40,896 nt of DNA from positions 1 through 40,896 of the IMG/VR virus record IMGVR_UViG_3300015188_000003. One strand, written 5' to 3'. Origin of the DNA: a virus (lineage: Duplodnaviria > Heunggongvirae > Uroviricota > Caudoviricetes). The notes beneath the pieces are model-generated. The model was not told the origin of the DNA and made no database searches. It saw only the letters and a program-made list of their open reading frames with translations. The position numbers and the translations under genes are program-made. This document shows, piece after piece, positions 8,728 through 35,559 of this stretch (within the stretch, counting starts at the first letter, position 1; every line of letters begins with the position of its first letter).

Positions 8728-9083
8728 TTTCTCACCTGAATAAAGTATGCCACGACATCACCATTAACCATCTTCTTCTCGATGGCTACGACAGACCATT
8801 GCCCGCCGTCGAATTGCACCTTGTCTTCCATCTTCGGAACGACACTGCAATCGGCTTTAACAATCACATCACCGGCCTGAATCGTCGTACCGTTTACCAG
8901 TCCAGCGTTTACCGGAACCGGAACCGCTTTCAACGGCAACACTTCATCCGCAGACCAGACGTATTCACCGAGAACTTCATCCCACACTTTCGAGCCAGCG
9001 CGGACGAGAGATACCGTGCTGCCGAACTTGGTTAGCAGGCGTGTACCCACGCCTTGCATACGTTTACTGAAAGCGGTGCTCAT
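8724..9083 (-). CDS. head closure / head-tail adaptor protein (position-based)
   Basis: 119-aa ORF; ATGA overlap downstream. Confidence 0.55.
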   Translation of the reverse strand: MSTAFSKRMQGVGTRLLTKFGSTVSLVRAGSKVWDEVLGEYVWSADEVLPLKAVPVPVNAGLVNGTTIQAGDVIVKADCSVVPKMEDKVQFDGGQWSVVAIEKKMVNGDVVAYFIQVRK

Positions 9084-9193
9084 TCTAACCCTCTCTTGGT
9101 CGAAAGAATGTTGGCTAATTCCTTACTTGCATCAGACAACCGCTTCTTATAACCGTAACTACGTTTTATTACTAGGCGTTTTTTAACCTCCAT
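9080..9193 (-). CDS. small basic peptide (37 aa), not on ORF track
   Basis: ATG overlaps upstream stop (TAATG), own stop overlaps downstream ATG (ATGA), GGAGG SD 7 nt upstream; MEVKKRLVIKRSYGYKKRL... Confidence 0.45.
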   Translation of the reverse strand: MEVKKRLVIKRSYGYKKRLSDASKELANILSTKRGLE

Positions 9194-16413: not shown

Positions 16414-17685
16414 TTAAAGTGCGAAAGTCACCGGGATGTTGATTACTGGTTTGCGAATCGGCATTTCATACGCGATGGGATATGTGGTCCCGTCATTCTG
16501 GTGGTCCACACCACCCGATTTATCCGGTTCGCCGTTCTTGTCGTAAGCCTGTTGCTCCAGGCATCGCGCGGTAACCGGGCAAGCCTGCTCATTAATCATG
16601 ACCATACCAGATTCAAGCGCCTTATTCATCGCCGCTACGCGGTCTTTAACCGGTGGGTTTGTCGATTTAGCGCGCACTTCGAAGCCGGCCTGCTGTAACT
16701 GGGCAATATCAGATGTGCTGGCGTTGTTACTTTTACGGTTTTTACCGCTTGCGTCGGGGTACATAACGATATAGTGGCCCTTACTTTTCCAGCGCTCTGT
16801 TACGGCTCTCACCACATCGGGCGTATCGGACATATCCACCAACTCGGCGACTGCATGCCAGACTTTGCCACGTTGCACGTAAACTGTACTAGCCATGTGG
16901 CCTACGTTAAAGTCCTGCCCGATATACAGAGTCTCGCCTGGTTTTATTGTTTCGCGGCTGCTGTTTTTCCTGCGGTCATAGGCGTAATAGACAGTCCCCG
17001 CCGTCAGGTTGACGAACTCGCCGTTGATGTAGGCGTCAATCAACTGACCTGGGTATGTGTCGCGTAACGACTGCACATAATCTTCTGGCAGGAACGGGTT
17101 AGACAGGGTGGACGCCTGAATCATCTCGTAGCCTGGATTCTTTTTGACTACCCAGCGGTCATGTACGAAACGGAATCCTTCCGGGGTAGTGAACACGGAA
17201 ACGGTATTAGCAGGTTTCGGTGTAATAGGTTTATATGTCCGCGGCAACTGGCGGTTACGGGCGATGACTTTGTTCCACGCGTGCTCGGCGTGCTCCATGT
17301 TAAGGGTGTCCAACTCGTCGATTTTCGCACGAAACGATTCGTAGCCAACGATTCGTGCTGGATTATCAAGTGTACGCAGAACAAAATCCCCAAATTGTCC
17401 GGAAGACGTATAGATTATGTTGTCAGACTTGTTGTATTTGTACCGGATACCCCAGTCGGTGAGCTTTTCTTCCATACGCGGTGCAAGGATGAGGCGCACC
17501 AGGTCATAAGTCGGCTCATACATGGCGATGATAGAATCGCTACCACCTTCCATGCTGTCGAGTAGTGCAGAGTTGCACATAACTTCGGATTTACCCGTAC
17601 CGAAGCCAGCTACGAATGCCGGAAACTTGCAATGCATACCGAGAAACGCGCCTTGCGGCTCCGTTGCCGTGATATTAACGTTCAC
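16414..17685 (-). CDS. terminase large subunit
   Basis: Walker A-like GFGTGKS near N-terminus; GTG start with AAGGTGG SD; overlaps small terminase. Confidence 0.85.
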   Translation of the reverse strand: MNVNITATEPQGAFLGMHCKFPAFVAGFGTGKSEVMCNSALLDSMEGGSDSIIAMYEPTYDLVRLILAPRMEEKLTDWGIRYKYNKSDNIIYTSSGQFGDFVLRTLDNPARIVGYESFRAKIDELDTLNMEHAEHAWNKVIARNRQLPRTYKPITPKPANTVSVFTTPEGFRFVHDRWVVKKNPGYEMIQASTLSNPFLPEDYVQSLRDTYPGQLIDAYINGEFVNLTAGTVYYAYDRRKNSSRETIKPGETLYIGQDFNVGHMASTVYVQRGKVWHAVAELVDMSDTPDVVRAVTERWKSKGHYIVMYPDASGKNRKSNNASTSDIAQLQQAGFEVRAKSTNPPVKDRVAAMNKALESGMVMINEQACPVTARCLEQQAYDKNGEPDKSGGVDHQNDGTTYPIAYEMPIRKPVINIPVTFAL

Positions 17686-18184
17686 CGGACACCACCTTAA
17701 TTGTTACTTCGCTGATTGGCTCGTCGCGTACTTCTTCGGCGACAACTGTTTTATTCAGGCCCAGTTTCGCGGCAGCAAACGTAGCAGAGATGCCCGCGGC
17801 CCCCGTTTCAGTGAAGTATGCCTCTTCCAGCGCCTGTGCTGTCTCCCAGGCTTCTGCAAATGCGGGAATCTCACGCAGCCAAAGCTTAATAATCGGGATA
17901 GTGACTCCGATGTGTAAGGCGAAGCGGGCCAGTGACGGTGGTTTATCCTGAATCAGCGGGCGTTCGTCACCCTTAGACGTTGGCACAAGCTCCCACGACG
18001 TGCGGTCGAAGAACTCGATTAACGCGTCACAGTAGTCCGGGTCCCACAATGCCGCAGAATTACGGGATGATTGATAAAGGCTCTGTTTACCGCGCGGTCG
18101 TTTACGGCGACGGTTTGCGCTAACAGCTTCTTCATGTGCAGCTTGTACCACCTCTGGCGATGGCTGCTTAAGTTTCAGCTTCAT
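17675..18184 (-). CDS. terminase small subunit
   Basis: Basic N-terminal region, immediately upstream of and overlapping large terminase; ATG (MKLKLK) with AAGGGGA SD; track start 18223 is GTG. Confidence 0.7.
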   Translation of the reverse strand: MKLKLKQPSPEVVQAAHEEAVSANRRRKRPRGKQSLYQSSRNSAALWDPDYCDALIEFFDRTSWELVPTSKGDERPLIQDKPPSLARFALHIGVTIPIIKLWLREIPAFAEAWETAQALEEAYFTETGAAGISATFAAAKLGLNKTVVAEEVRDEPISEVTIKVVSGER

Positions 18185-18280
18185 AGAATCCCCTTGCATA
18201 TGCGTCTGACCATCAGAGCGCACCAGACGCGCCCTACGCGTCTAAATGGATTATATAAGGGGATTGGGCGGGATGTACAG

Positions 18281-18301
18281 AAAAGCCCTCCGTAGAGGGC
18301 T
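18281..18301 (-). terminator. terminator separating the early microgene string from the packaging operon (AGCCCTC-CGTA-GAGGGCT + U-tract)
   Basis: GC hairpin followed on - strand by TTTCTGT. Confidence 0.5.
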
Positions 18302-18311
18302 TGTGGGTTGG

Positions 18312-18467
18312 TTATTCTGTTATATCGCCGCCGTCTACCAGTGCGATTGGTATTCTCACTTCACCGTTGAATGTTTCGGCATACCAGAACTTTTCACACT
18401 GCGTTACGCTGAAAACATCGAGTTCTGACGTAGCCCCTGTTTTCCAGTAGATAGTTAACTTTTTCAT
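18312..18467 (-). CDS. small protein (51 aa), not on ORF track
   Basis: ATGA overlap with upstream gene; AGGAG SD. Confidence 0.4.
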   Translation of the reverse strand: MKKLTIYWKTGATSELDVFSVTQCEKFWYAETFNGEVRIPIALVDGGDITE

Positions 18468-18700
18468 TCTCCACTCTCCTCTTTAGCAATACGTTGCTCA
18501 GTTTTAGTGATACCACGGCGCGTGAATAACACCGGGCTAGTCTTAACGTGCGTCATCAGACGATTGTTATAAATTACGTGGCGCTCACAATCAACGTCTT
18601 TACTGTACTTAGCAATCGTCATTTCGTTGATACCGGTTTGTCGGCATGTCTCCGCCATCGTACCAAATTCTTTAATCAGGTTAGGAATGCTGGTAATCAT
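18464..18700 (-). CDS. hypothetical early protein
   Basis: Track ORF 18464..18724; likely ATG at 18700 (MITSIPNL) via ATGA coupling to upstream ORF. Confidence 0.6.
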   Translation of the reverse strand: MITSIPNLIKEFGTMAETCRQTGINEMTIAKYSKDVDCERHVIYNNRLMTHVKTSPVLFTRRGITKTEQRIAKEESGE

Positions 18701-18867
18701 CCTAAGAAATTCCTCGTTGTCCACATCGCATTCGGATATTTGTTATCGCGGTCCTGCACCACGGCGACCATGTTACCACGTTGCACCAGGCAGAAGTGAC
18801 GCTGTTGCTCGCCGTTGTAACGGCGCCAGATTGCTTCTTCGATTGCTGCGTTGATGTCGCTGAACAT
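18697..18867 (-). CDS. small protein (56 aa), not on ORF track
   Basis: Coupled by ATGA downstream and TAATG upstream. Confidence 0.35.
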   Translation of the reverse strand: MFSDINAAIEEAIWRRYNGEQQRHFCLVQRGNMVAVVQDRDNKYPNAMWTTRNFLG

Positions 18868-18950
18868 TAGTATCTACCCCACAGAAAACCGACCAATAGC
18901 CCAATGAAGTAACTAAGACCAACCAGACTTATAACAACCTCAAGACTCAT
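18867..18950 (-). CDS. hydrophobic 27-aa peptide (single TM helix), not on ORF track
   Basis: MSLEVVISLVGLSYFIGLLVGFLWGRY; stop overlaps next ATG. Confidence 0.3.
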   Translation of the reverse strand: MSLEVVISLVGLSYFIGLLVGFLWGRY

Positions 18951-18954
18951 GCTC

Positions 18955-19152
18955 TCACCCCACTATCTCATCGCCAAGCCACGCCGTTTCTCGTATATCG
19001 TCTACTACACACGCAGCGTGCTCGCGGCTAATCGCAAAAATGTAGAAACTGAACTTCTTCCCATCGGCGTCGATGTGGTTAACCGAGTAAGGTTTCCACA
19101 GGACGCCATCGATAACTACCGGCTCAGGCGTGCTCATCTGGCGCCTCAACAA
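18955..19152 (-). CDS. hypothetical early protein (65 aa)
   Basis: Track ORF in tightly packed leftward string. Confidence 0.55.
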   Translation of the reverse strand: MLRRQMSTPEPVVIDGVLWKPYSVNHIDADGKKFSFYIFAISREHAACVVDDIRETAWLGDEIVG

Positions 19153-19432
19153 GACAACTCAGCATGTCAGTAATCTCCGTCTCAAGCCGTTTTCCTAACG
19201 CCGATTTAGTGCAGTGTTCGGCCCACTCCCCGGATTGCAACAATCCAATCATATTTTCTATGTCAGACGCGATGGCTTGTAGCTCTTTAAACGCCTCTAG
19301 AAGTTCTTTATACGCCTCCAGTTGAAACTCACCGTTAATTGACAGTTGCCCGCCTAACGTCTGTTTCTCCGACTCAAGCACCATAATACGGCGCTCGAGC
19401 GATGCAATTGTGATTTTAGGCATTGGTGTCAC
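19124..19432 (-). CDS. hypothetical early protein, coiled-coil (102 aa)
   Basis: Track ORF. Confidence 0.6.
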   Translation of the reverse strand: MTPMPKITIASLERRIMVLESEKQTLGGQLSINGEFQLEAYKELLEAFKELQAIASDIENMIGLLQSGEWAEHCTKSALGKRLETEITDMLSCLVEAPDEHA

Positions 19433-19601
19433 CTTTGTTCAGGTTGAAGCGGTTAATCAGTTCGCGGCGCGTCTCATAAAGCGACTCCACCATTTGCTCG
19501 GCTACCGCGATTTTATTATTCAGGACGCACATCACGTGGCTAATGTCTACGCCGCCGTTAACGGCCTCTACCATCATCTTTTCATATTCACGGTCAGTCA
19601 T
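19416..19601 (-). CDS. hypothetical early protein (61 aa)
   Basis: Track ORF. Confidence 0.55.
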   Translation of the reverse strand: MTDREYEKMMVEAVNGGVDISHVMCVLNNKIAVAEQMVESLYETRRELINRFNLNKGDTNA

Positions 19602-19755
19602 TTTTACGCTCTCCCCACATGCGGTTGAGATACTTGTTCTTGTCCGGCCCAGGGAAACTGTTACGTTTCATCAGTTCCTCGCGTGTCGGGAACGGGGTGT
19701 GACTCACCTTACGGCCTACTCGTAATGGTTGGCTTACTTGACCTTGTTCGCTCAT
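19594..19755 (-). CDS. small protein (53 aa), not on ORF track
   Basis: ATGA overlap with upstream gene and GGGAGG SD 7 nt upstream. Confidence 0.45.
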   Translation of the reverse strand: MSEQGQVSQPLRVGRKVSHTPFPTREELMKRNSFPGPDKNKYLNRMWGERKND

Positions 19756-19949
19756 TCTACAACCTCCCATTTAACGCCGTGGAAACCATCACCGTCATCG
19801 TTACCAAAGTCTATGAAAATATGGCAGTCGTCGTCGGAGTCTATATAACCGAAACCAGTAGCTGTCGGGTTGTATACATCATACACTTTACCCTCTGTGA
19901 CATAGTCAAGGGCGGCTAACCAGAGAATTTTAGCGGCTTTAACTTTCAT
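19752..19949 (-). CDS. hypothetical acidic early protein (65 aa)
   Basis: Track ORF; ATGA overlaps both sides. Confidence 0.6.
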   Translation of the reverse strand: MKVKAAKILWLAALDYVTEGKVYDVYNPTATGFGYIDSDDDCHIFIDFGNDDGDGFHGVKWEVVE

Positions 19950-20194
19950 TTCTTCTCTCCTGCATAAGCTGCTTTCAGTGTCTGCATAGCAGCGAACCAG
20001 AACGCATCCGCAGGGATATTGCGGCTCAGGTTACTAACGGCGATACGCGCCATCAGTTGTGCGTCTTTGAATGCTTCGGTATCTGTGATTTTCATTGGAA
20101 ATTTACGCATAGCAACCGGGTCATTACCCATAGTCCATGCGATACATTTGGCTTCAAGTTCCTCGGTTATTGCGATTGTCTGTACGTTACTCAT
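19946..20194 (-). CDS. hypothetical early protein (82 aa)
   Basis: Track ORF, first gene after promoter 20228..20256. Confidence 0.6.
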   Translation of the reverse strand: MSNVQTIAITEELEAKCIAWTMGNDPVAMRKFPMKITDTEAFKDAQLMARIAVSNLSRNIPADAFWFAAMQTLKAAYAGEKK

Positions 20195-20227
20195 CTTCTC
20201 TACTCCGTTCTCGTTGTCGATGGAGTA

Positions 20228-20276: not shown

Positions 20277-20310
20277 ATAAAAAAAATCCCGGCTGGGTCA
20301 GGGCCGGGAT
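20277..20310 (-). terminator. rho-independent terminator after lysis cassette (ATCCCGGC-loop-GCCGGGAT + 9-nt U-run)
   Basis: Perfect 8-bp stem followed on - strand by T9. Confidence 0.8.
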
Positions 20311-20374
20311 AAAACTGGAGAGCAGAGGTATGGAACAGGAGGTGATTTAAGTATCGTCGGATTAGTCTCAGGTG

Positions 20375-20860
20375 TCAACCTTTCACCGCGCGCCCGATAG
20401 CCTCTGCCTCTTGCCACGGTTTACCGTCGAACAGCGCCAGACGACCGGCAGTACGGCGGCGCAGACCAAGTAACGGTCTGCCGTTCTGGTTGATGAACAG
20501 TGTCAGCTTAGCCCGCAGCGTTGCAATATCACCAGAACGCAGTGCCTTACCCGTGCCGGTAGTAGCAGCAATCACACCAGCACCTGCGTTGTATACCAGG
20601 TCGCACACTGCATCGAACTGTGCCTGTGTCAATGAATGGTGTGCTGCTGCGTCAACCGCAGCTACGGCCTTAGCCATATCACGATTCAGTAACAGGAGGC
20701 CTTGTCCCGGGGTGATGGTCTTGCCTGGCGTTACGTCTGGCCCATAATGACCGTACCCAATAGTCAGGTACTTCTCATTTGGCGTAGCACGATACGCAGT
20801 TCCGCGGAATCCCTCGAACGCGGCGGTGAATTTGATGCCATTGTTGCTAATGTTTCTCAT
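20375..20860 (-). CDS. endolysin, GH24 lysozyme-like
   Basis: FEGFRGTAYR...TIGYGH and GL..RR...LF motifs typical of phage lysozymes. Confidence 0.8.
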   Translation of the reverse strand: MRNISNNGIKFTAAFEGFRGTAYRATPNEKYLTIGYGHYGPDVTPGKTITPGQGLLLLNRDMAKAVAAVDAAAHHSLTQAQFDAVCDLVYNAGAGVIAATTGTGKALRSGDIATLRAKLTLFINQNGRPLLGLRRRTAGRLALFDGKPWQEAEAIGRAVKG

Positions 20861-20950
20861 AAAGCACCTTCCCGTAATTTATGGTTCGCGAAAACTCCGG
20901 TATCGGGGTCGTAGTGTAAAACCTCGCGCAGCTTATCTGCGGTAAGTCCA

Positions 20951-21223
20951 TTATCTGAAATATTTCGAGACACGCTTATGTCCTCCGTATGACAGCCACG
21001 CCTGACGAATCTGGCGCAGCGCAACTAATGTGATTAATGTCTCAGGCAGCGTCGGAGACATGCTGCCCTGTAACAGGTGGATACATCCTGCGGCGCAGAC
21101 AATAGCAGTCAGGATATAGAGCACCCGGCCAAATAGCCCGTCGTCAACGCTGGGATGATACACATTAAACAGCGATGTGCCTCCGATTGCCAGCATACCG
21201 CAGAACCAGAATAACTCATTCAT
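20951..21223 (-). CDS. membrane protein with 2 predicted TMDs (second holin/antiholin-like)
   Basis: ATG (MNELFWF) overlaps holin stop as ATGAATGA; two hydrophobic helices; track ORF 20951..21403 has a spurious N-extension. Confidence 0.5.
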   Translation of the reverse strand: MNELFWFCGMLAIGGTSLFNVYHPSVDDGLFGRVLYILTAIVCAAGCIHLLQGSMSPTLPETLITLVALRQIRQAWLSYGGHKRVSKYFR

Positions 21224-21524
21224 CCGGGCCTCCTCGACGTGCGATGTATTCTCCGGCGACGATACCGGACAGACGGGAATAGATAGGCATCCAGAGAATA
21301 GCGATAATGAAGCCCAGGCCTGCGATTTCACGGTCGCCCGTGATTCCAAACCATTGAGCTGCGAGAGGTGCGCCAAATACGGCGCAAGTGAAGCCAGTTG
21401 CAATAAAGCAGAAGCCGTCGATAGGGCCGGAAATAGCGGACTTATGTTGCCTTAGTCCGATTACCCCTCCGGCTAGTGCGGCAGCGAGAAGCCACCCCGT
21501 CACAGTTTCAGTAAATTTATCCAA
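21216..21524 (-). CDS. holin (3 predicted TMDs)
   Basis: TTG start with GGAGG SD; three hydrophobic segments and charged C-terminus; adjacent to endolysin. Confidence 0.65.
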   Translation of the reverse strand: MDKFTETVTGWLLAAALAGGVIGLRQHKSAISGPIDGFCFIATGFTCAVFGAPLAAQWFGITGDREIAGLGFIIAILWMPIYSRLSGIVAGEYIARRGGPDE

Positions 21525-23001: not shown

Positions 23002-23145
23002 TCACCCCTTATTCATCACAGCTTGCGCACCAGCTTTCCACGCCCGCCACGCAAGACGCGTCTTAACGTTCAGGTACTCTTTCTTCGAACCCTTGTTAAC
23101 CGGCAGACCCTCGACTACGGCCCATCGTTCGAATGCTTCTCTCAT
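23002..23145 (-). CDS. small protein (47 aa), not on ORF track
   Basis: GGAGG SD 8 nt upstream; stop 3 nt before next ATG. Confidence 0.4.
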   Translation of the reverse strand: MREAFERWAVVEGLPVNKGSKKEYLNVKTRLAWRAWKAGAQAVMNKG

Positions 23146-24555: not shown

Positions 24556-24684
24556 ATGACAAAGTTAATAGTTCCACAGCTACGCCGCCAGAAACACGGC
24601 GCTGACTTCTTCGCACCGGTAAAGATGAACCGCGCAATGCGCCGTATGCAGGAAGCCTTAGAACGTGCGGAGAAAAAGAAATGA
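24556..24684 (+). CDS. small basic protein (42 aa), not on ORF track
   Basis: AAGGA SD; stop overlaps primase ATG (ATGA). Confidence 0.4.
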   Translation: MTKLIVPQLRRQKHGADFFAPVKMNRAMRRMQEALERAEKKK

Positions 24685-30303: not shown

Positions 30304-32505
30304 ATGAGTTACCTGTTCTTAGACTTTGAGACATTCTCCGAAGCCGATTTAAAGAAAGTCGGCTCTTACGCTTACGCCGAACACCCAACTACAGAAGTGC
30401 TTATCTGTACATATGCTTTTGACGACGAGCCTGTTCAGGTGTGGGATTGCACCGACGGCAGCGACATGCCGGGCGATTTGCACCGCGCGCTACGTCGCCT
30501 GATTAAGCCAAACAGCCGTATTAAGATGGTGTGGCACAACGGTGGACTTTTCGATAGGCTCGTCATGAAGCACTGCTGGGGCTTTGATATTCCCGTAAGC
30601 AACACCATTGATACGATGATTTGGGCGTTTCGTCACGCGCTGCCGGGGTCACTCGATGCGCTGTGCGAAGTGCTGGGCGTGTCTGCAGACAACGCGAAAG
30701 ACAAACGCGGCAAGGCGCTGATTCAGCGTTTTTCTAAACCTACGCCAAAGAACTACAAAATCCGCCGCTATACCGCGGAAACGCACCCGGATGAGTGGGC
30801 GCTGTTTATCAAGTATGCCGTGAGTGACATCACAGCGATGCGTGAAGTGTTCCATAAGCTGCCGCGGTGGGGTAACTCCGAATTCGAAGACCGTGTACTG
30901 GAACTGGACCAGTTAATCAACGACCGTGGGTTTAAGGTTGATGTGACGCTGGCGGAAGCCGCGATTGAAGCCGTGGAAAAACACAAGGCCCAGTTACAGG
31001 AAGAAGCCCAACGCAAATACGGCGGCTCACTTACCGGTAAAGACTTTCTGCCGATTCTGCGTGAACTTGCGCCAGCGCACCGCATTCACAACGCGCAGAA
31101 GTCAACGCTTAACGACCTGCTGGCGGACGATGATTTACCGGACGACGCCCGCGCGATTATAGAAATGCGCCTCGGGGCGGCATCCACTGCGTCAACGAAA
31201 TATAGCCCTCTGCTGTTGGGCCGCTCGTCTGACGACCGTCGTCGCGGTTGCCTGCAGTACGGTGGGGCAAAACGTACTCTGCGATGGGCCGGTAAAGGCT
31301 TCCAGCCACAGAACCTGGCACGCGGTTACTATCACGATGATGAGCTGGATAAAGGCATTTCGGCGTTACTTAAGGGCCGCGCCCATCGCCGTTTCGATGT
31401 AGCCAAGCTAACAGCATCGACGGTTCGTAGCTGCATTATCCCGGAAGCAGGACATAAGTTTGTCGTCGCCGATTACTCGAACGTTGAAGGCCGAGGGCTT
31501 GCGTGGCTGGCTGGTGAAGAAACCGCCCTCGATACGTTCCGCGCTGGACTGGATATTTACTGCGTAACAGCAGGTAAGATGTTCGGTATGGACCCCGACG
31601 ATATTAAGAAAAACTTCAAGGAAATCAGGCAGATAGGCAAGGCTTGCGAACTCGGCCTCGGCTATGAGGGGGGCGTCGGAGCGTTCGTTACGTTCGCTAA
31701 AAACTTAGGTCTTGATCTTATCGAGATGACAAAAACAATGGACGGTACATTCCCCGACCACATATGGGCTGCTACCGCACGTGGCTATGAGTGGGCGCGT
31801 ATCCAGGAAGCAAAGCGACCGCCGCATCCGGGTGAAAAGGATGACCGACCATCGTATATCCTCGATAAGAAAGTGTGGCGTACTTGTGATGCTATCAAGC
31901 GTATGTGGCGCGAGTCACACCCCGAAACAGTAGCGTTCTGGCGCGACCTTAAAGACGGAATTTTAGCCGCTGTTCGTAATCCTGGTCGTGAATTTTGGGC
32001 AGGGGCACACTTGCGCAGGAATGGGGAAAGGGCTATCCGCATATGGCGTACTGTGGAATTTGATTCATCCGGTAGGAAGGTTCCGGGTTGGTGGTTGTGT
32101 ATGGAGTTGCCGTCAGGCCGTATCCTCTCATATCCGGGAATCGGCGTTAGTGTGACAAAGGAAACCGACGAAGACGGACGGGTAAATACGAATGTGCGAA
32201 TAAAATATAAGGGCGAAAACCAGTTAACCCGCCAATGGACTACCCTGTACACCCACGGCGGCAAAGCCTGCGAAAACATTGTTCAGGCGCTGTGCCGTGA
32301 TTTACTTGCGTATGCGATGATTAATGTTGAGGGTGGCGGGTATCCCATCGTGCTTTCGGTACACGATGAATTAGTGTGTGAAACTCCTGATACACCTGAG
32401 TACACGGTGGCTGAACTGGAGAAATTAATGTGTTCGCTGCCCGAGTGGGCTGAGGGGTTCCCTCTTGTAGCAGAAGGTGCGGAGATGAAGCGTTATGCCA
32501 AGTAA
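30304..32505 (+). CDS. family A DNA polymerase with 3'-5' exonuclease domain
   Basis: 733 aa; N-terminal FLDFETFS exonuclease motif; C-terminal polymerase-like region. Confidence 0.85.
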   Translation: MSYLFLDFETFSEADLKKVGSYAYAEHPTTEVLICTYAFDDEPVQVWDCTDGSDMPGDLHRALRRLIKPNSRIKMVWHNGGLFDRLVMKHCWGFDIPVSNTIDTMIWAFRHALPGSLDALCEVLGVSADNAKDKRGKALIQRFSKPTPKNYKIRRYTAETHPDEWALFIKYAVSDITAMREVFHKLPRWGNSEFEDRVLELDQLINDRGFKVDVTLAEAAIEAVEKHKAQLQEEAQRKYGGSLTGKDFLPILRELAPAHRIHNAQKSTLNDLLADDDLPDDARAIIEMRLGAASTASTKYSPLLLGRSSDDRRRGCLQYGGAKRTLRWAGKGFQPQNLARGYYHDDELDKGISALLKGRAHRRFDVAKLTASTVRSCIIPEAGHKFVVADYSNVEGRGLAWLAGEETALDTFRAGLDIYCVTAGKMFGMDPDDIKKNFKEIRQIGKACELGLGYEGGVGAFVTFAKNLGLDLIEMTKTMDGTFPDHIWAATARGYEWARIQEAKRPPHPGEKDDRPSYILDKKVWRTCDAIKRMWRESHPETVAFWRDLKDGILAAVRNPGREFWAGAHLRRNGERAIRIWRTVEFDSSGRKVPGWWLCMELPSGRILSYPGIGVSVTKETDEDGRVNTNVRIKYKGENQLTRQWTTLYTHGGKACENIVQALCRDLLAYAMINVEGGGYPIVLSVHDELVCETPDTPEYTVAELEKLMCSLPEWAEGFPLVAEGAEMKRYAK

Positions 32506-32626
32506 ACTGATTATCGCGGTACTGGCTGGATTCGCCGCCGGTGTTTACTGTCATGAGGGTCAGTACGGCATGATGGTTGCCGTATTGGGTATATTCATCG
32601 CAATTTATCTGTGGGTGCTGGAATGA
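32495..32626 (+). CDS. small hydrophobic membrane peptide (43 aa), not on ORF track
   Basis: MPSKLIIAVLAGFAAGV...; overlaps polymerase stop and next ATG. Confidence 0.35.
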   Translation: MPSKLIIAVLAGFAAGVYCHEGQYGMMVAVLGIFIAIYLWVLE

Positions 32627-32721
32627 AAATTTACTGGTTATATGAAGAAGACTGTCGAATCTGCCCTCGCTGCGGTATCGCGCATACGAAACGGGAGGGG
32701 TGTATAGATGAGTACGCCTGA
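32623..32721 (+). CDS. small Cys-rich (CxxCxxC) peptide (32 aa), not on ORF track
   Basis: ATGA overlap upstream; DCRICPRCG zinc-ribbon-like motif. Confidence 0.3.
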   Translation: MKIYWLYEEDCRICPRCGIAHTKREGCIDEYA

Positions 32722-34008: not shown

Positions 34009-35425
34009 GTTTCAAAGGCGCGAATACCAGAAGCTAATGACTTCGTTCATGTTGCGGCACCATCGCTGTAATATTTGGGCGAGCATGGGCGCCGGGAAGA
34101 CTGGCAGCGTACTGTGGACATTAAACCGACTGTTCCGCAACGGGCAGCTTACAGAAGAGGACCGCGTGTTAATCCTCGCCCCGTTGCGCGTTGCATCAGG
34201 CACATGGCCGGCGGAACAAACTAAGTGGAATTTCCCATGTCTGCGTGTCGTAGACGCGACCGGTTCAGAGAAGCGCCGCATCGCGGCGCTGGAGTCGGAC
34301 GCTAACGTGGTGTGCACGAACTATGAGGTAATAGAGTGGTTGATTGACTACTACGGCAAAGACGACTGGCCTTTTACCGTTATCGTTGCCGATGAAAGCA
34401 CGAAACTGAAGTCATTCCGCAGCCGTTCAGGCGGCAGCAAGCGGGCGAAGGCGCTTAGTAGAGTGGCGTTCGGAAAGGTTAAGCGTTTTATCAACCTGAC
34501 AGGTACACCATCGCCTAACGGCCTCAAGGACTTGTGGGGACAGAACTGGTTTATCGACGCGGGCGAGCGCCTCGGTTCTTCGTACACGGCATTCACCGAC
34601 CGCTGGTTTAACTCGGTGCAGAAAGGCAAATCTGCTATGGCGCGCGAATACCACGCCCGCCCGGGTGCGGATACTGAAATCCACCAGAAGATGAAGGACA
34701 TCAGTCTCACGATTGACGCCGCTGAGTGGTTCGGATGCGAAGCGCCGGTTATCGTACCTGTTGAAATCGACCTGCCGAAGAAAGCGCGTCAGGCGTACAT
34801 AGATATGGAGGAGAAGTTATTTGCGGAACTGGAGAGCGGGGAAGTCGAAGCGGCTAACGCGGCGGCGAAGACGTCGAAGTGTTTGCAGATTGCATCCGGT
34901 GCCGTGTATGTATCCGGACCAGACGGAGAAGCAACGAAAGACTGGGAGAAAGTGCACGATACGAAACTGGATGCGCTGGAGTCAATTGTGGAGGAGTTGC
35001 AGGGCGCGCCGTTGCTGGTCGCCTATCAGTTCAAGCACGAACTTGAGCGCATCCTTAAGCGATTCCCACAGGCGCAGGCGTTTTCCAAAGGCGCGAAGGG
35101 TAATAAGCAGATGGAAGCGTGGAACCGCGGCGAAATAGAAATCTTATGCGTACACCCTGCGTCAGCCGGGCATGGTTTGAATTTACAGGACGGCGGCCAT
35201 CATCTGGCGTTTATTTCACAAGGCTGGAATCTTGAGCACTATTTGCAGGTTGTCGAGCGCATCGGCCCTGTTCGCCAGAAACAAGCTGGGCACGAGCGCC
35301 CGGTGTTCCTTTATCACATAGTCGCTAAAGACACGCTGGACGAGGTTGTTGCCGCGCGTACCGACGAGAAGAAATCGGTACAGGAAGAGTTGCTTAACTA
35401 CATGAAGAGACGAGGTAAGAAATGA
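34001..35425 (+). CDS. SNF2/DEAD-like ATP-dependent helicase
   Basis: Walker A GAGKTG, DExx box VIVADEST, C-terminal helicase region. Confidence 0.75.
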   Translation: MSKFQRREYQKLMTSFMLRHHRCNIWASMGAGKTGSVLWTLNRLFRNGQLTEEDRVLILAPLRVASGTWPAEQTKWNFPCLRVVDATGSEKRRIAALESDANVVCTNYEVIEWLIDYYGKDDWPFTVIVADESTKLKSFRSRSGGSKRAKALSRVAFGKVKRFINLTGTPSPNGLKDLWGQNWFIDAGERLGSSYTAFTDRWFNSVQKGKSAMAREYHARPGADTEIHQKMKDISLTIDAAEWFGCEAPVIVPVEIDLPKKARQAYIDMEEKLFAELESGEVEAANAAAKTSKCLQIASGAVYVSGPDGEATKDWEKVHDTKLDALESIVEELQGAPLLVAYQFKHELERILKRFPQAQAFSKGAKGNKQMEAWNRGEIEILCVHPASAGHGLNLQDGGHHLAFISQGWNLEHYLQVVERIGPVRQKQAGHERPVFLYHIVAKDTLDEVVAARTDEKKSVQEELLNYMKRRGKK

Positions 35426-35559
35426 ACATCATAGCCCCGATTCCAGCATTGCAAAAACGTATCAAGGAACTCGAAGAGGAGGTTCTACGCCTACGGCAAC
35501 AGAGAGATGCCGCTAATGCGCAACTGGCGTTTGTGCTGGAGAAGTTATCGGAAGAGTAG
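35422..35559 (+). CDS. small coiled-coil protein (45 aa), not on ORF track
   Basis: ATGA overlap with helicase stop; ends at terminator. Confidence 0.4.
   Translation: MNIIAPIPALQKRIKELEEEVLRLRQQRDAANAQLAFVLEKLSEE

What the first reader, a model, noticed from the sequence alone, without database searches (positions are those of the whole stretch)
18312..20194. Dense chain of translationally coupled microgenes, several below the ORF-track cutoff
In the early region and between replication genes, many short ORFs (27-57 aa) fit exactly between annotated genes with ATGA or TAATG start/stop overlaps and good SD sequences (for example 18312..18467, 18697..18867, 18867..18950, 19594..19755, 23002..23145; also 9080..9193, 24556..24684, 32495..32626, 32623..32721, 35422..35559). 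Repeated exact coupling is unlikely by chance and suggests a set of uncharacterised micro-proteins, including single-TM peptides.
Basis: seen in the sequence. Interest (0 to 1): 0.45.

Follow-up and report, generated by a model that had tools for sequence, protein, structure and literature searches.

The report
Phage operon of ten tiny genes
The chain is a real operon of ten very small protein genes in a Kagunavirus-type E. coli phage; nine are already annotated in relatives as proteins of unknown function, and the tenth, a conserved 27-residue membrane peptide, is unannotated in the public records I checked.

Summary
The window is a Kagunavirus (Guernseyvirinae) E. coli siphophage. Window 18312-20194 (minus strand) holds ten ORFs of 27-99 aa. 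Their junctions are -4, -4, -8, -8, -14, +4, -1, -4 and -4 nt, and each start has a Shine-Dalgarno match.

All ten show frame-specific purifying selection in relatives (pN/pS 0.07-0.37). Eight match existing PHROG families, and nine are annotated as hypothetical, NinH or DUF2737 proteins in related genomes.

The chain sits between the lysis genes and terS. It looks like a separate transcription unit, with a conserved terminator plus TTGACT-17-TATATT promoter upstream and a conserved hairpin downstream. Across 40 relatives the interior is highly mosaic, with 8-14 microgenes per island. Homology breakpoints fall at gene boundaries, as in a hypervariable accessory island.

The one new item is ORF 18867-18950, a 27-aa transmembrane peptide with a GxxxGxxxG motif. 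It is intact in 21/21 loci, has pN/pS 0.19, and occurs in 64 phage records. 53 of the 60 listed records show no feature under it, and the two overlapping annotations I opened are not this ORF.

Functions are unknown. Host-directed accessory roles are an inference. The Gp2-like "RNA polymerase inhibitor" label given to one member in a relative is not supported.

The parts
20278..20310 (-). Intrinsic-terminator-like hairpin (CCCGGCCC...GCCGGG) followed by T8. It closes the lysis cassette just upstream of the microgene operon.
   Evidence: ViennaRNA fold -13.8 kcal/mol; stem and T-run invariant in 37 distinct related sequences. The simple terminator scan did not list it. A terminator is annotated at the equivalent place in phage Schulenburg.
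20228..20256 (-). Sigma-70-type promoter TTGACT-17 nt-TATATT, with a predicted transcription start near 20221. Predicted promoter of the microgene operon.
   Evidence: 10/12 consensus match. Both hexamers are invariant in 37 distinct relatives even where the first gene downstream differs. Function is not tested.
19946..20194 (-). Gene A, 82 aa. The C-terminal 54 aa match phrog_2180. In most relatives this part is a separate 49-aa gene preceded by a different small gene.
   Evidence: pN/pS 0.14 in frame against 0.77-1.50 in the two shifted sense frames.
19752..19949 (-). Gene B, 65 aa, acidic (pI 4.3). Predicted SH3-like small beta-barrel. No PHROG or Pfam match.
19594..19755 (-). Gene C, 53 aa, basic. 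Member of DUF2737.
   Evidence: PF10930 38.9 bits, above the 25-bit cutoff; phrog_4684 at 1e-33; pN/pS 0.23 over 35 sequences; tblastn matches in 559 phage records, including Sf6, HK544 and P22.
19416..19601 (-). Gene D, 61 aa (phrog_1402). Its N-terminal 41 aa are also found fused to NinH-like proteins (phrog_268).
   Evidence: pN/pS 0.16.
19124..19423 (-). Gene E, 99 aa. The N-terminal part is conserved (phrog_9023/10200) and gave only a sub-threshold helical-domain Pfam hit; 'coiled-coil-like' is my reading of the sequence. The C-terminal half is variable.
   Evidence: (pN/pS 0.23).
18955..19137 (-). Gene F, 60 aa (phrog_10509). Predicted small beta-beta-beta-alpha-beta fold.
18867..18950 (-). 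Gene G, a 27-aa single-TM peptide MSLEVVISLVGLSYFIGLLVGFLWGRY with G17xxxG21xxxG25. Unannotated microgene. Its stop overlaps the start of H (TAATG).
   Evidence: ORF intact in 21/21 loci that carry the segment; 12 distinct DNA and 10 distinct peptide sequences; pN/pS 0.19 against 1.08 and 2.79 in the shifted frames; one in-frame 15-nt deletion variant. tblastn matches in 64 phage records; 53 of the 60 listed have no feature under the match, and two overlapping annotations I opened are not this ORF. KD hydropathy 2.34 over 17 residues.
18697..18867 (-). Gene H, 56 aa (phrog_5407).
   Evidence: pN/pS 0.07 over 30 sequences.
18464..18700 (-). Gene I, 78 aa, NinH-like (Fis-like HTH) DNA-binding protein. 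ATG at 18700 rather than the GTG at 18724.
   Evidence: PF06322 E = 5.5e-5 but 23.4 bits, below the 29.8-bit cutoff; phrog_268 at 4e-30; named 'NinH family protein' in RefSeq NC_042084; pN/pS 0.11 over 40 sequences.
18312..18467 (-). Gene J, 51 aa (phrog_22569). Last gene of the operon in this window; replaced by other small genes in most relatives.
   Evidence: (pN/pS 0.12, only 3 sequences).
18276..18302 (-). Hairpin AAGCCCTC-TACG-GAGGGCTT followed by TTTCTGT. Terminator-like end of the operon.
   Evidence: Fold -14.8 kcal/mol; near-invariant in 35 distinct relatives. Not listed by the simple scan, because the T-run is weak.
18250..18279 (-). TGTACA-18-TATAAT promoter-like site upstream of terS. 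It bounds the island but is not part of it.
   Evidence: conserved.
23002..23145 (-). Other listed microgene K, 47 aa (phrog_15836).
   Evidence: pN/pS 0.32 over 5 sequences.
9080..9193 (-). Other listed microgene L, 37 aa, basic. No PHROG. A rare cassette in the head-tail connector region.
   Evidence: tblastn finds it in only 5 phage records; the features listed under those matches are two 'hypothetical protein' entries plus a connector/neck gene, and I did not open the records to see whether one of them is L. The selection test is uninformative with 2 sequences.
24556..24684 (+). Other listed microgene M, 42 aa (phrog_23061). ATGA-coupled to the 750-aa ORF that follows.
   Evidence: No orthologue in the loci fetched.
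32495..32626 (+). Other listed microgene N, 43 aa, TM-like (phrog_10404).
   Evidence: pN/pS 0.22 over 37 sequences.
32623..32721 (+). Other listed microgene O, 32 aa, with CxxCxxC...C (phrog_38225).
   Evidence: pN/pS 0.11 over 37 sequences.
35422..35559 (+). Other listed microgene P, 45 aa, coiled-coil-like (phrog_5915).
   Evidence: pN/pS 0.10 over 30 sequences.

Best explanation
Window 18312-20194 is the hypervariable accessory-gene operon of a Kagunavirus (Guernseyvirinae) E. coli siphophage.

Shown: it consists of ten real protein-coding microgenes (27-99 aa) on the minus strand, packed stop-to-start, each with its own Shine-Dalgarno match. Each gene is kept under purifying selection. 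The unit lies between the endolysin and terS. It is bracketed by strongly conserved sequences: a hairpin+T8 terminator and a TTGACT-17-TATATT promoter upstream, and a hairpin downstream. Between these anchors, related phages carry different combinations of 8-14 small genes, and homology breaks at gene boundaries, so single microgenes are the units of exchange.

Inferred: host RNA polymerase transcribes the unit as one polycistronic mRNA from the sigma-70-type promoter. Ribosomes move from gene to gene by termination-reinitiation or closely spaced SD initiation. The products are individually dispensable, host-directed small modulators. They include a NinH/Fis-like DNA-binding protein, a DUF2737 protein, an SH3-like barrel, a small alpha/beta protein and, in gene G, a glycine-zipper membrane peptide that probably acts by packing against itself or a host membrane protein.

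The unit is the virulent-phage counterpart of the nin/ea regions of lambdoid phages and the hyperplastic regions of T4-like phages.
For: - Identity of the phage: 97-98% identity over 95-97% of a 4-kb query to Kagunaviruses XY2 and 590B; gene order matches their annotation.
- Coding status: pN/pS 0.07-0.37 in frame 0, against about 0.8-3.3 in the two shifted sense frames, for all ten genes. ORFs are intact in nearly all orthologous loci. PHROG matches for 8 of 10. DUF2737 is above the Pfam cutoff.
- Packing and SD.
- Transcription-unit boundaries: promoter scan; hairpin energies, and invariance of both hexamers and both hairpins in 35-37 distinct relatives.
- Mosaicism: 40 distinct islands and 59 ORF clusters, a few of which are parsing artefacts. 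246 of 300 homology breakpoints lie within 10 nt of a gene start or stop, against 42 expected.
- Link to lambdoid accessory regions: NinH-like I; DUF2737 matches in Sf6, HK544 and P22 next to eaE. NinH is a Fis-like DNA-bending protein (PMC7166090).
- Transcription: the NinH orthologue of Kagunavirus K1B4 is transcribed during infection (PMC12645636).
- Gene G.
Against: - No transcript, ribosome or peptide data exist for this window. The promoter, terminators and coupling are sequence predictions.
- Neither hairpin was listed by the simple terminator scan, and the downstream T-run is weak.
- The only Kagunavirus time course places the NinH gene in a broad 'middle' class together with most other genes (PMC12645636), so early expression is not shown.
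- Read-through from the lysis cassette, or into terS, is possible.
- Host-directed roles are inferred from analogy and from presence/absence variation.
- The relatives are closely related and not independent, so the pN/pS and breakpoint counts are descriptive, not formal tests.
Confidence: 0.8

Rival explanations
1. Some or all of the sub-60-aa ORFs are chance open frames in spacers between real genes. In particular, the 84-nt G segment would be a non-coding linker, regulatory RNA or recombination joint.
For: G is only 27 codons. It has no PHROG or Pfam family. No feature lies under it in 53 of the 60 listed records. It is absent from about half of related genomes. One gap-filling ORF of this size would arise by chance at roughly the percent level (my estimate).
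Against: - G's frame is intact in 21/21 loci.
- Substitutions concentrate at third positions: pN/pS 0.19 in frame, against 1.08 and 2.79 in the shifted frames.
- The one length variant inside the peptide is an in-frame 15-nt deletion.
- Where the TAATG junction is lost, the frame continues to a new stop overlapping H.
- The peptide keeps its hydrophobic core and G17/G21/G25 across 10 distinct sequences.
- No Rfam family matches.
- The other nine ORFs show the same selection signature.
Confidence: 0.05
2. The chain is part of the late transcript (lysis, then microgenes, then terS/terL), and its products serve DNA packaging or morphogenesis. For example, the NinH/Fis-like protein immediately upstream of terS could bend DNA at the packaging site.
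For: - The chain is on the same strand as, and lies between, the endolysin and terS.
- The downstream hairpin has a weak T-run, and neither hairpin passed the simple terminator scan.
- I, C, D, F and H are near-universal in the lineage.
- The NinH gene groups with most structural and replication genes in the K1B4 time course (PMC12645636).
Against: - A conserved strong hairpin+T8 and a near-consensus sigma-70 promoter separate the chain from the lysis genes.
- Gene content is far more mosaic than in the flanking structural and lysis modules.
- Homologues of C and I sit in non-essential early accessory regions of lambdoid phages (PMC7166090).
- None of the proteins matches a packaging or structural family.
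Confidence: 0.12
3. Gene F is a T7 Gp2-type inhibitor of host RNA polymerase, as annotated in phage fEg-Eco06, so the operon is specifically a host-transcription shut-off module.
Against: - phmmer against PDB sequences finds no Gp2 match.
- No RNA polymerase gene was seen in the relatives' annotation rows examined, so the phage probably depends on host RNA polymerase throughout. This is an inference; the window's long ORFs were not individually scanned.
Confidence: 0.05

Closest known systems
nin region (ninA-ninH, PR operon) and ea region (PL operon) of lambdoid / P22-like phages
   Same: Runs of about ten small, tightly packed, mostly overlapping ORFs that are mosaic between relatives. Two families are shared: gene I is NinH-like and gene C is DUF2737, found in Sf6, HK544 and P22 next to eaE. 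That these regions are individually dispensable is textbook knowledge (the nin5 deletion), not tested here.
   Different: The host phage here is a virulent siphophage. The unit lies between the lysis cassette and terS, not between the replication genes and Q. It has its own promoter and terminators instead of being read by antiterminated PR/PL transcription. Most member families are unrelated. There is no DNA match in 5,426 complete E. coli genomes.
Hyperplastic regions of T4-like phages bounded by promoter-early stem-loop (PeSL) motifs (PMC4122927)
   Same: Clusters of small ORFs of unknown function, variable between close relatives, associated with conserved composite terminator-plus-promoter sequences. 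Exchange is modular.
   Different: Here the conserved terminator/promoter motifs occur only at the two ends of the island. Inside it, modules are joined by overlapping stop/start codons, and breakpoints sit at those junctions, not at repeated PeSLs.
Bacterial and phage small membrane proteins (for example E. coli AcrZ, MgtS and MgrB, and type I toxins such as TisB and DinQ). Recalled from general knowledge, not tested.
   Same: G is a 27-aa peptide with a single hydrophobic helix and a glycine zipper. It is conserved under purifying selection and lies below gene-caller length limits.
   Different: There is no sequence similarity to any of them; the only hit is a sub-threshold Pfam EpuA match at E = 0.012. 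No antisense-RNA or SOS context is seen. G is translationally coupled inside a phage operon. Its activity is unknown.
Bas11 Gp54 (66-aa non-essential phage beta-barrel that triggers the CapRel-SJ46 defence; PMC11578894)

Membership tests
Real protein-coding gene (each of A-J) | Open frame conserved in relatives, with an excess of synonymous over non-synonymous change specific to that frame | tested here: met
   pN/pS 0.07-0.37 in frame 0, against about 0.8-3.3 in the +1/+2 frames; ORFs intact in 4-43 loci per gene. J rests on only 3 distinct sequences and A on 5.
Real protein-coding gene (each of A-J) | Translation detected (ribosome footprints or peptide) | not testable with these tools
   No Ribo-seq or proteomics data are available. 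The only evidence is transcription of the NinH orthologue in K1B4 (PMC12645636).
Translationally coupled polycistronic operon | Same-strand genes with stop/start overlap or a gap of a few nt, and an SD inside the upstream gene | tested here: met
   Junctions -14 to +4 nt. Anti-SD pairing -4.3 to -10.9 kcal/mol for A-J.
Translationally coupled polycistronic operon | A single promoter and terminator bounding the unit; downstream translation dependent on upstream translation | not testable with these tools
   The promoter and hairpins are predicted and conserved. Internal promoter-like hits are weak (9/12) and their number is near the chance expectation. Coupling itself needs reporter or nonsense-mutant experiments.
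Hypervariable accessory island (nin/ea-like, HPR-like) | Gene content varies between close relatives while the flanks stay conserved | tested here: met
   40 distinct islands of 1416-2622 nt as extracted, which includes about 40 nt of flank. They hold 8-14 ORFs and 59 clusters. Flanks are 95-99% identical.
Hypervariable accessory island (nin/ea-like, HPR-like) | Exchange in units of whole genes | tested here: met
   246 of 300 homology breakpoints lie within 10 nt of a gene boundary, against 42 expected. Exceptions lie inside E and A.
Hypervariable accessory island (nin/ea-like, HPR-like) | Genes dispensable for lytic growth | not testable with these tools
   Inferred only from presence/absence of A, B, E (C-terminal half), G and J among relatives.
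T4-type PeSL-mediated shuffling | Repeated promoter-stem-loop motifs between the shuffled modules | tested here: not met
   Terminator and promoter motifs occur only at the island ends. Internal junctions are overlapping codons.
Pfam Phage_NinH (PF06322), gene I | Score at or above the Pfam gathering cutoff | tested here: not met
   23.4 bits against a 29.8-bit cutoff, E = 5.5e-5 over 49 of 60 profile positions. RefSeq names the orthologue 'NinH family protein'. It is best called NinH-like.
Pfam Phage_NinH (PF06322), gene I | Fis-like dimeric HTH that binds and bends DNA (PMC7166090) | not tested
   No structure prediction or assay was done for I.
Pfam DUF2737 (PF10930), gene C | Score at or above the Pfam gathering cutoff | tested here: met
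   38.9 bits against a 25-bit cutoff.
T7 Gp2-type RNA polymerase inhibitor, gene F | Sequence or profile similarity to Gp2 | tested here: not met
   No phmmer hit; hhalign probability 0.6%.
T7 Gp2-type RNA polymerase inhibitor, gene F | Gp2 fold as the specific best structural match | tested here: inconclusive
   [not shown]
Small single-pass membrane protein, gene G | A hydrophobic helix of about 17-20 residues, conserved | tested here: met
   KD 2.34 over residues 5-21. The hydrophobic core and G17/G21/G25 are kept in the full-length variants seen.
Small single-pass membrane protein, gene G | Membrane insertion and a partner or activity | not testable with these tools
   Needs fractionation, fusion reporters and interaction assays.
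Holin / lysis-cassette peptide, gene G | Encoded within the lysis cassette and universally present | tested here: not met
   G lies 1.4 kb downstream of the endolysin, beyond a terminator and promoter, and is absent from about half of relatives.

The most novel reading that the evidence does not exclude
Gene G and its 30-32-aa variants form a previously unrecognised family of phage glycine-zipper membrane micropeptides. They have been missed because the 84-nt ORF is below the roughly 90-nt minimum of common gene callers (my knowledge of Prodigal and PHANOTATE defaults). The peptide would act on a host inner-membrane protein or form oligomeric pores, for example in superinfection exclusion, membrane depolarisation or counter-defence. 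More broadly, the terminator/promoter-bracketed island upstream of terS would be the lineage's hotspot for counter-defence and host-takeover microproteins.
Probability: 0.3. Interest if true: 0.5.

Novelty: new member of a known kind. Interest (0 to 1): 0.27.

Why it matters
For annotation, a conserved 27-32-aa membrane peptide gene is present in 64 sequenced phage records, including therapeutic-candidate and BASEL-collection Kagunaviruses. No CDS lies under it in 53 of the 60 records listed. Minimum-length rules in gene callers are the likely cause, so similar genes are probably missed elsewhere.

For biology, the island is a compact, well-delimited locus in which related phages swap 27-101-aa genes one at a time. 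That makes it a convenient place to look for small host-directed or counter-defence proteins.

Otherwise the finding is what is expected of a phage accessory region. It does not overturn anything.

Tried and rejected
- Cold-shock-domain homology of B: single-sequence E = 0.11-0.24 looked suggestive through a GFGY motif. The motif is not conserved in the family, the profile search did not improve (E = 0.37), and the model is an SH3-like barrel. Rejected.
- NCBIfam gave nothing for A-J. PDB sequence searches for C, H and I gave nothing significant.
- Rfam and tRNA scans of the whole window were empty.
- An IUPAC DNA scan of IMG/VR for G returned only contigs already in hand.
- The island has no match in complete E. 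coli genomes, so a prophage origin at the DNA level is not seen.
- My automatic ORF-chain parser split H into two false ORFs (f11, f12) in loci where H starts with GTG. Manual translation shows H intact in the four loci opened (L035, L039, L009, L019) and apparently frameshifted in Schulenburg. The figure of 59 families is therefore slightly inflated.
- Internal promoter-like hits inside the chain (9/12 matches) were set aside, because the total count was near the shuffle expectation.
- The K1B4 RNA-seq paper does not resolve the timing of the operon.
Full report
**What the window is.** A 4-kb query around the finding matches 441 phage records. The best hits are E. coli Kagunaviruses (Guernseyvirinae): XY2 at 97% coverage and 97.2% identity, and 590B at 95% and 98.3%. 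The first 25 kb gives the same answer. Gene order on the minus strand is holin, holin, endolysin (20375-20860), the chain in question (20194 down to 18312), terS (17675-18223) and terL.

**Checking the observation.** In 18312-20194 there are ten minus-strand ORFs, which I call A to J; their coordinates are in the parts list. Junction distances are -4, -4, -8, -8, -14, +4, -1, -4 and -4 nt. A one-strand chain of ATG ORFs covers 1879 of 1883 nt. In 500 dinucleotide shuffles the mean was 825 ± 193 and the maximum 1443; the opposite strand of the real sequence gives 922. Pairing to the anti-SD upstream of the 16 listed starts averages -7.1 kcal/mol, against -2.1 for all ATGs in the window (p = 1.4e-9). 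The observation therefore stands and is far beyond chance.

**Are they genes?** I collected 37 IMG/VR loci around gene F and seven GenBank regions. For each ORF I aligned the orthologues by codon.
- All ten show substitution patterns specific to their own frame. Pooled pN/pS is 0.07-0.37 in frame, against roughly 0.8-3.3 in the two shifted sense frames. As expected, the antisense frame that shares third positions mimics the signal.
- ORFs are intact in almost all loci that carry them.
- Eight of the ten match PHROG families at 1e-21 to 1e-35.
- C is DUF2737, above the Pfam cutoff. I is NinH-like, below the cutoff at E = 5.5e-5, and is named 'NinH family protein' in RefSeq.
- Nine of the ten are annotated CDSs in relatives.
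- Of the other listed ORFs, K, M, N, O and P have PHROG families. K, N, O and P show pN/pS of 0.10-0.32.
- L (9080-9193) occurs in only five phage records and one IMG/VR locus, so it cannot be tested. M had no orthologue in the loci I fetched.

**The one unannotated gene.** G (18867-18950) encodes MSLEVVISLVGLSYFIGLLVGFLWGRY. It has no PHROG or Pfam family.
- The frame is open in 21/21 loci that carry the segment. There are 12 distinct DNA sequences and 10 distinct peptides among them.
- pN/pS is 0.19, against 1.08 and 2.79 in the shifted frames.
- One variant has an in-frame 15-nt deletion. Where the TAATG junction is lost, the frame runs on to a stop that overlaps a GTG-started H.
- tblastn finds it in 64 phage records. 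Of the 60 listed, 53 have no feature under the match and seven show some feature. I opened two of the seven. In phiWAO78-1 the overlapping feature is an antisense ORF, and in SZH-1 it is the neighbouring upstream gene, so neither is G. The other five were not opened.
- Residues 5-21 have a Kyte-Doolittle mean of 2.34. G17xxxG21xxxG25 is kept in the full-length variants seen.
- G is present in roughly half of Kagunaviruses. Elsewhere its slot between F and H is empty or holds another cassette: a DUF3850/ASCH protein, or an 82-86-aa coiled-coil protein whose C-terminal TM segment aligns with G at the DNA level.
- At 84 nt including the stop, G is below the roughly 90-nt minimum of common gene callers. 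That figure is from my own knowledge, and it plausibly explains the missing annotation.

**Architecture of the unit.**
- *Upstream of A:* a hairpin (-13.8 kcal/mol) followed by T8, then TTGACT-17-TATATT, then the SD of A. The hairpin, both hexamers and the SD are invariant or nearly so in 37 distinct relatives, even where the first gene differs.
- *Downstream of J:* the hairpin AAGCCCTC-TACG-GAGGGCTT (-14.8 kcal/mol), a TATAAT-containing promoter-like site, and an inverted repeat just before terS. These are 97-99% conserved in 35 distinct relatives.
- *Between the anchors:* 40 distinct islands of 1416-2622 nt as extracted, which includes about 40 nt of flank. They carry 8-14 ORFs of 20-101 aa (median 60). 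There are 59 clusters in all, a few of which are parser artefacts.
- *Junctions:* of 398 junctions, 195 are -4 nt and 377 lie between -14 and +5 nt.
- *Breakpoints:* 246 of 300 homology breakpoints against the window fall within 10 nt of a gene boundary, where 42 are expected by chance. Recurrent exceptions lie inside E and A.

This is a hypervariable accessory island with conserved regulatory ends.

**What the products look like.**
- *I* is NinH-like. Lambda NinH is a Fis-like DNA-binding and DNA-bending protein (PMC7166090).
- *C* (DUF2737) has relatives throughout Guernseyvirinae and in Sf6, HK544 and P22, where it lies next to eaE.
- *The rest* have no informative matches.

**Mechanism.** The gene structure, the selection, the mosaicism and the conserved boundary motifs are shown. 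The rest is inferred: transcription from the sigma-70-type promoter as a single mRNA, coupled translation across the junctions, individual dispensability, and host-directed roles. The only Kagunavirus transcriptome shows that the NinH orthologue is expressed, but it places it in a broad 'middle' class (PMC12645636). Timing is therefore open.

**Comparison with known systems.** The unit works like the nin and ea regions of lambdoid phages, with which it shares two families. It also resembles the hyperplastic regions of T4-like phages (PMC4122927). It differs in three ways: its position between lysis and terS, its own promoter and terminators, and the absence of internal promoter-stem-loop repeats. 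The island has no DNA match in 5,426 complete E. coli genomes.

**Verdict.** The new element is G, a conserved micropeptide gene that is almost never annotated. Overall this is an ordinary phage accessory operon with one small annotation discovery. Interest is about 0.27.

Noticed in passing
window 18224-18311: The intergenic stretch before terS is 97-99% identical in 35 distinct relatives, which is more conserved than the flanking genes. It holds a hairpin at 18283-18302, TGTACA-18-TATAAT at 18250-18279, and the inverted repeat AGACGCG-TAGGG-CGCGTCT abutting the terS start. BASEL-collection records (for example Bas71) end or begin exactly here. It could hold the late promoter or a packaging signal.
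   Followed up: partly
window 18955-19137 (gene F); L005 1759-1944: The orthologue in phage fEg-Eco06 is annotated 'RNA polymerase inhibitor, similar to 2LMC_A' (T7 Gp2). Sequence, profile and fold comparisons do not support this. The label may spread to other records.
   Followed up: yes
[not shown]
   Followed up: partly
L029, L032, L034, L038 (slot between F and H): An 82-86-aa coiled-coil protein with a C-terminal TM segment (LIGVAVGVLVMWGIGY) occupies the same slot as G. Its 3' DNA aligns with G, so G may be a stand-alone version of that membrane anchor, or the longer protein may be a fusion onto it.
   Followed up: partly
window 19416-19601 (D) and 18464-18700 (I): phrog_268 (119 positions) matches the N-terminal 41 aa of D and, separately, almost all of I, so other phages carry a D-Nterm::NinH-like fusion. 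A database protein (P0021) is a D-Nterm::F chimera. Exchange therefore also occurs inside genes.
   Followed up: no
window 32623-32721 and 32495-32626: O is a 32-aa protein with CxxCxxC...C, which may be a mini zinc ribbon. N is a 43-aa strongly hydrophobic protein. Both are conserved under purifying selection and are coupled to each other by ATGA, downstream of a 733-aa ORF.
   Followed up: partly
window 19946-20194 (gene A): A looks like a fusion or extension. Residues 34-82 correspond to a separate 49-aa gene (phrog_2180) in most relatives, where a different 62-77-aa gene precedes it. In this window there is no SD before the internal ATG at 20095.
   Followed up: partly
window 20298-20417 (minus strand); L004 1950-2069: Bas71 annotates a 39-aa CDS that overlaps the endolysin 3' end and runs into the terminator hairpin. 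The equivalent GTG ORF exists in this window and looks like a spurious call.
   Followed up: no
window 20375-21524: Annotation tables of relatives list two holin-like genes and an endolysin in this cassette, but no spanin (Rz/Rz1-type) gene. I did not search for one.
   Followed up: no
most related loci, 3' end of the island (for example L004 83-184): Most relatives end the island with a conserved 33-aa ORF (MRLLIIPNAWAIAVANDHYGG...). It is absent from this window, which has J instead. It is annotated in Bas71 and Schulenburg.
   Followed up: no
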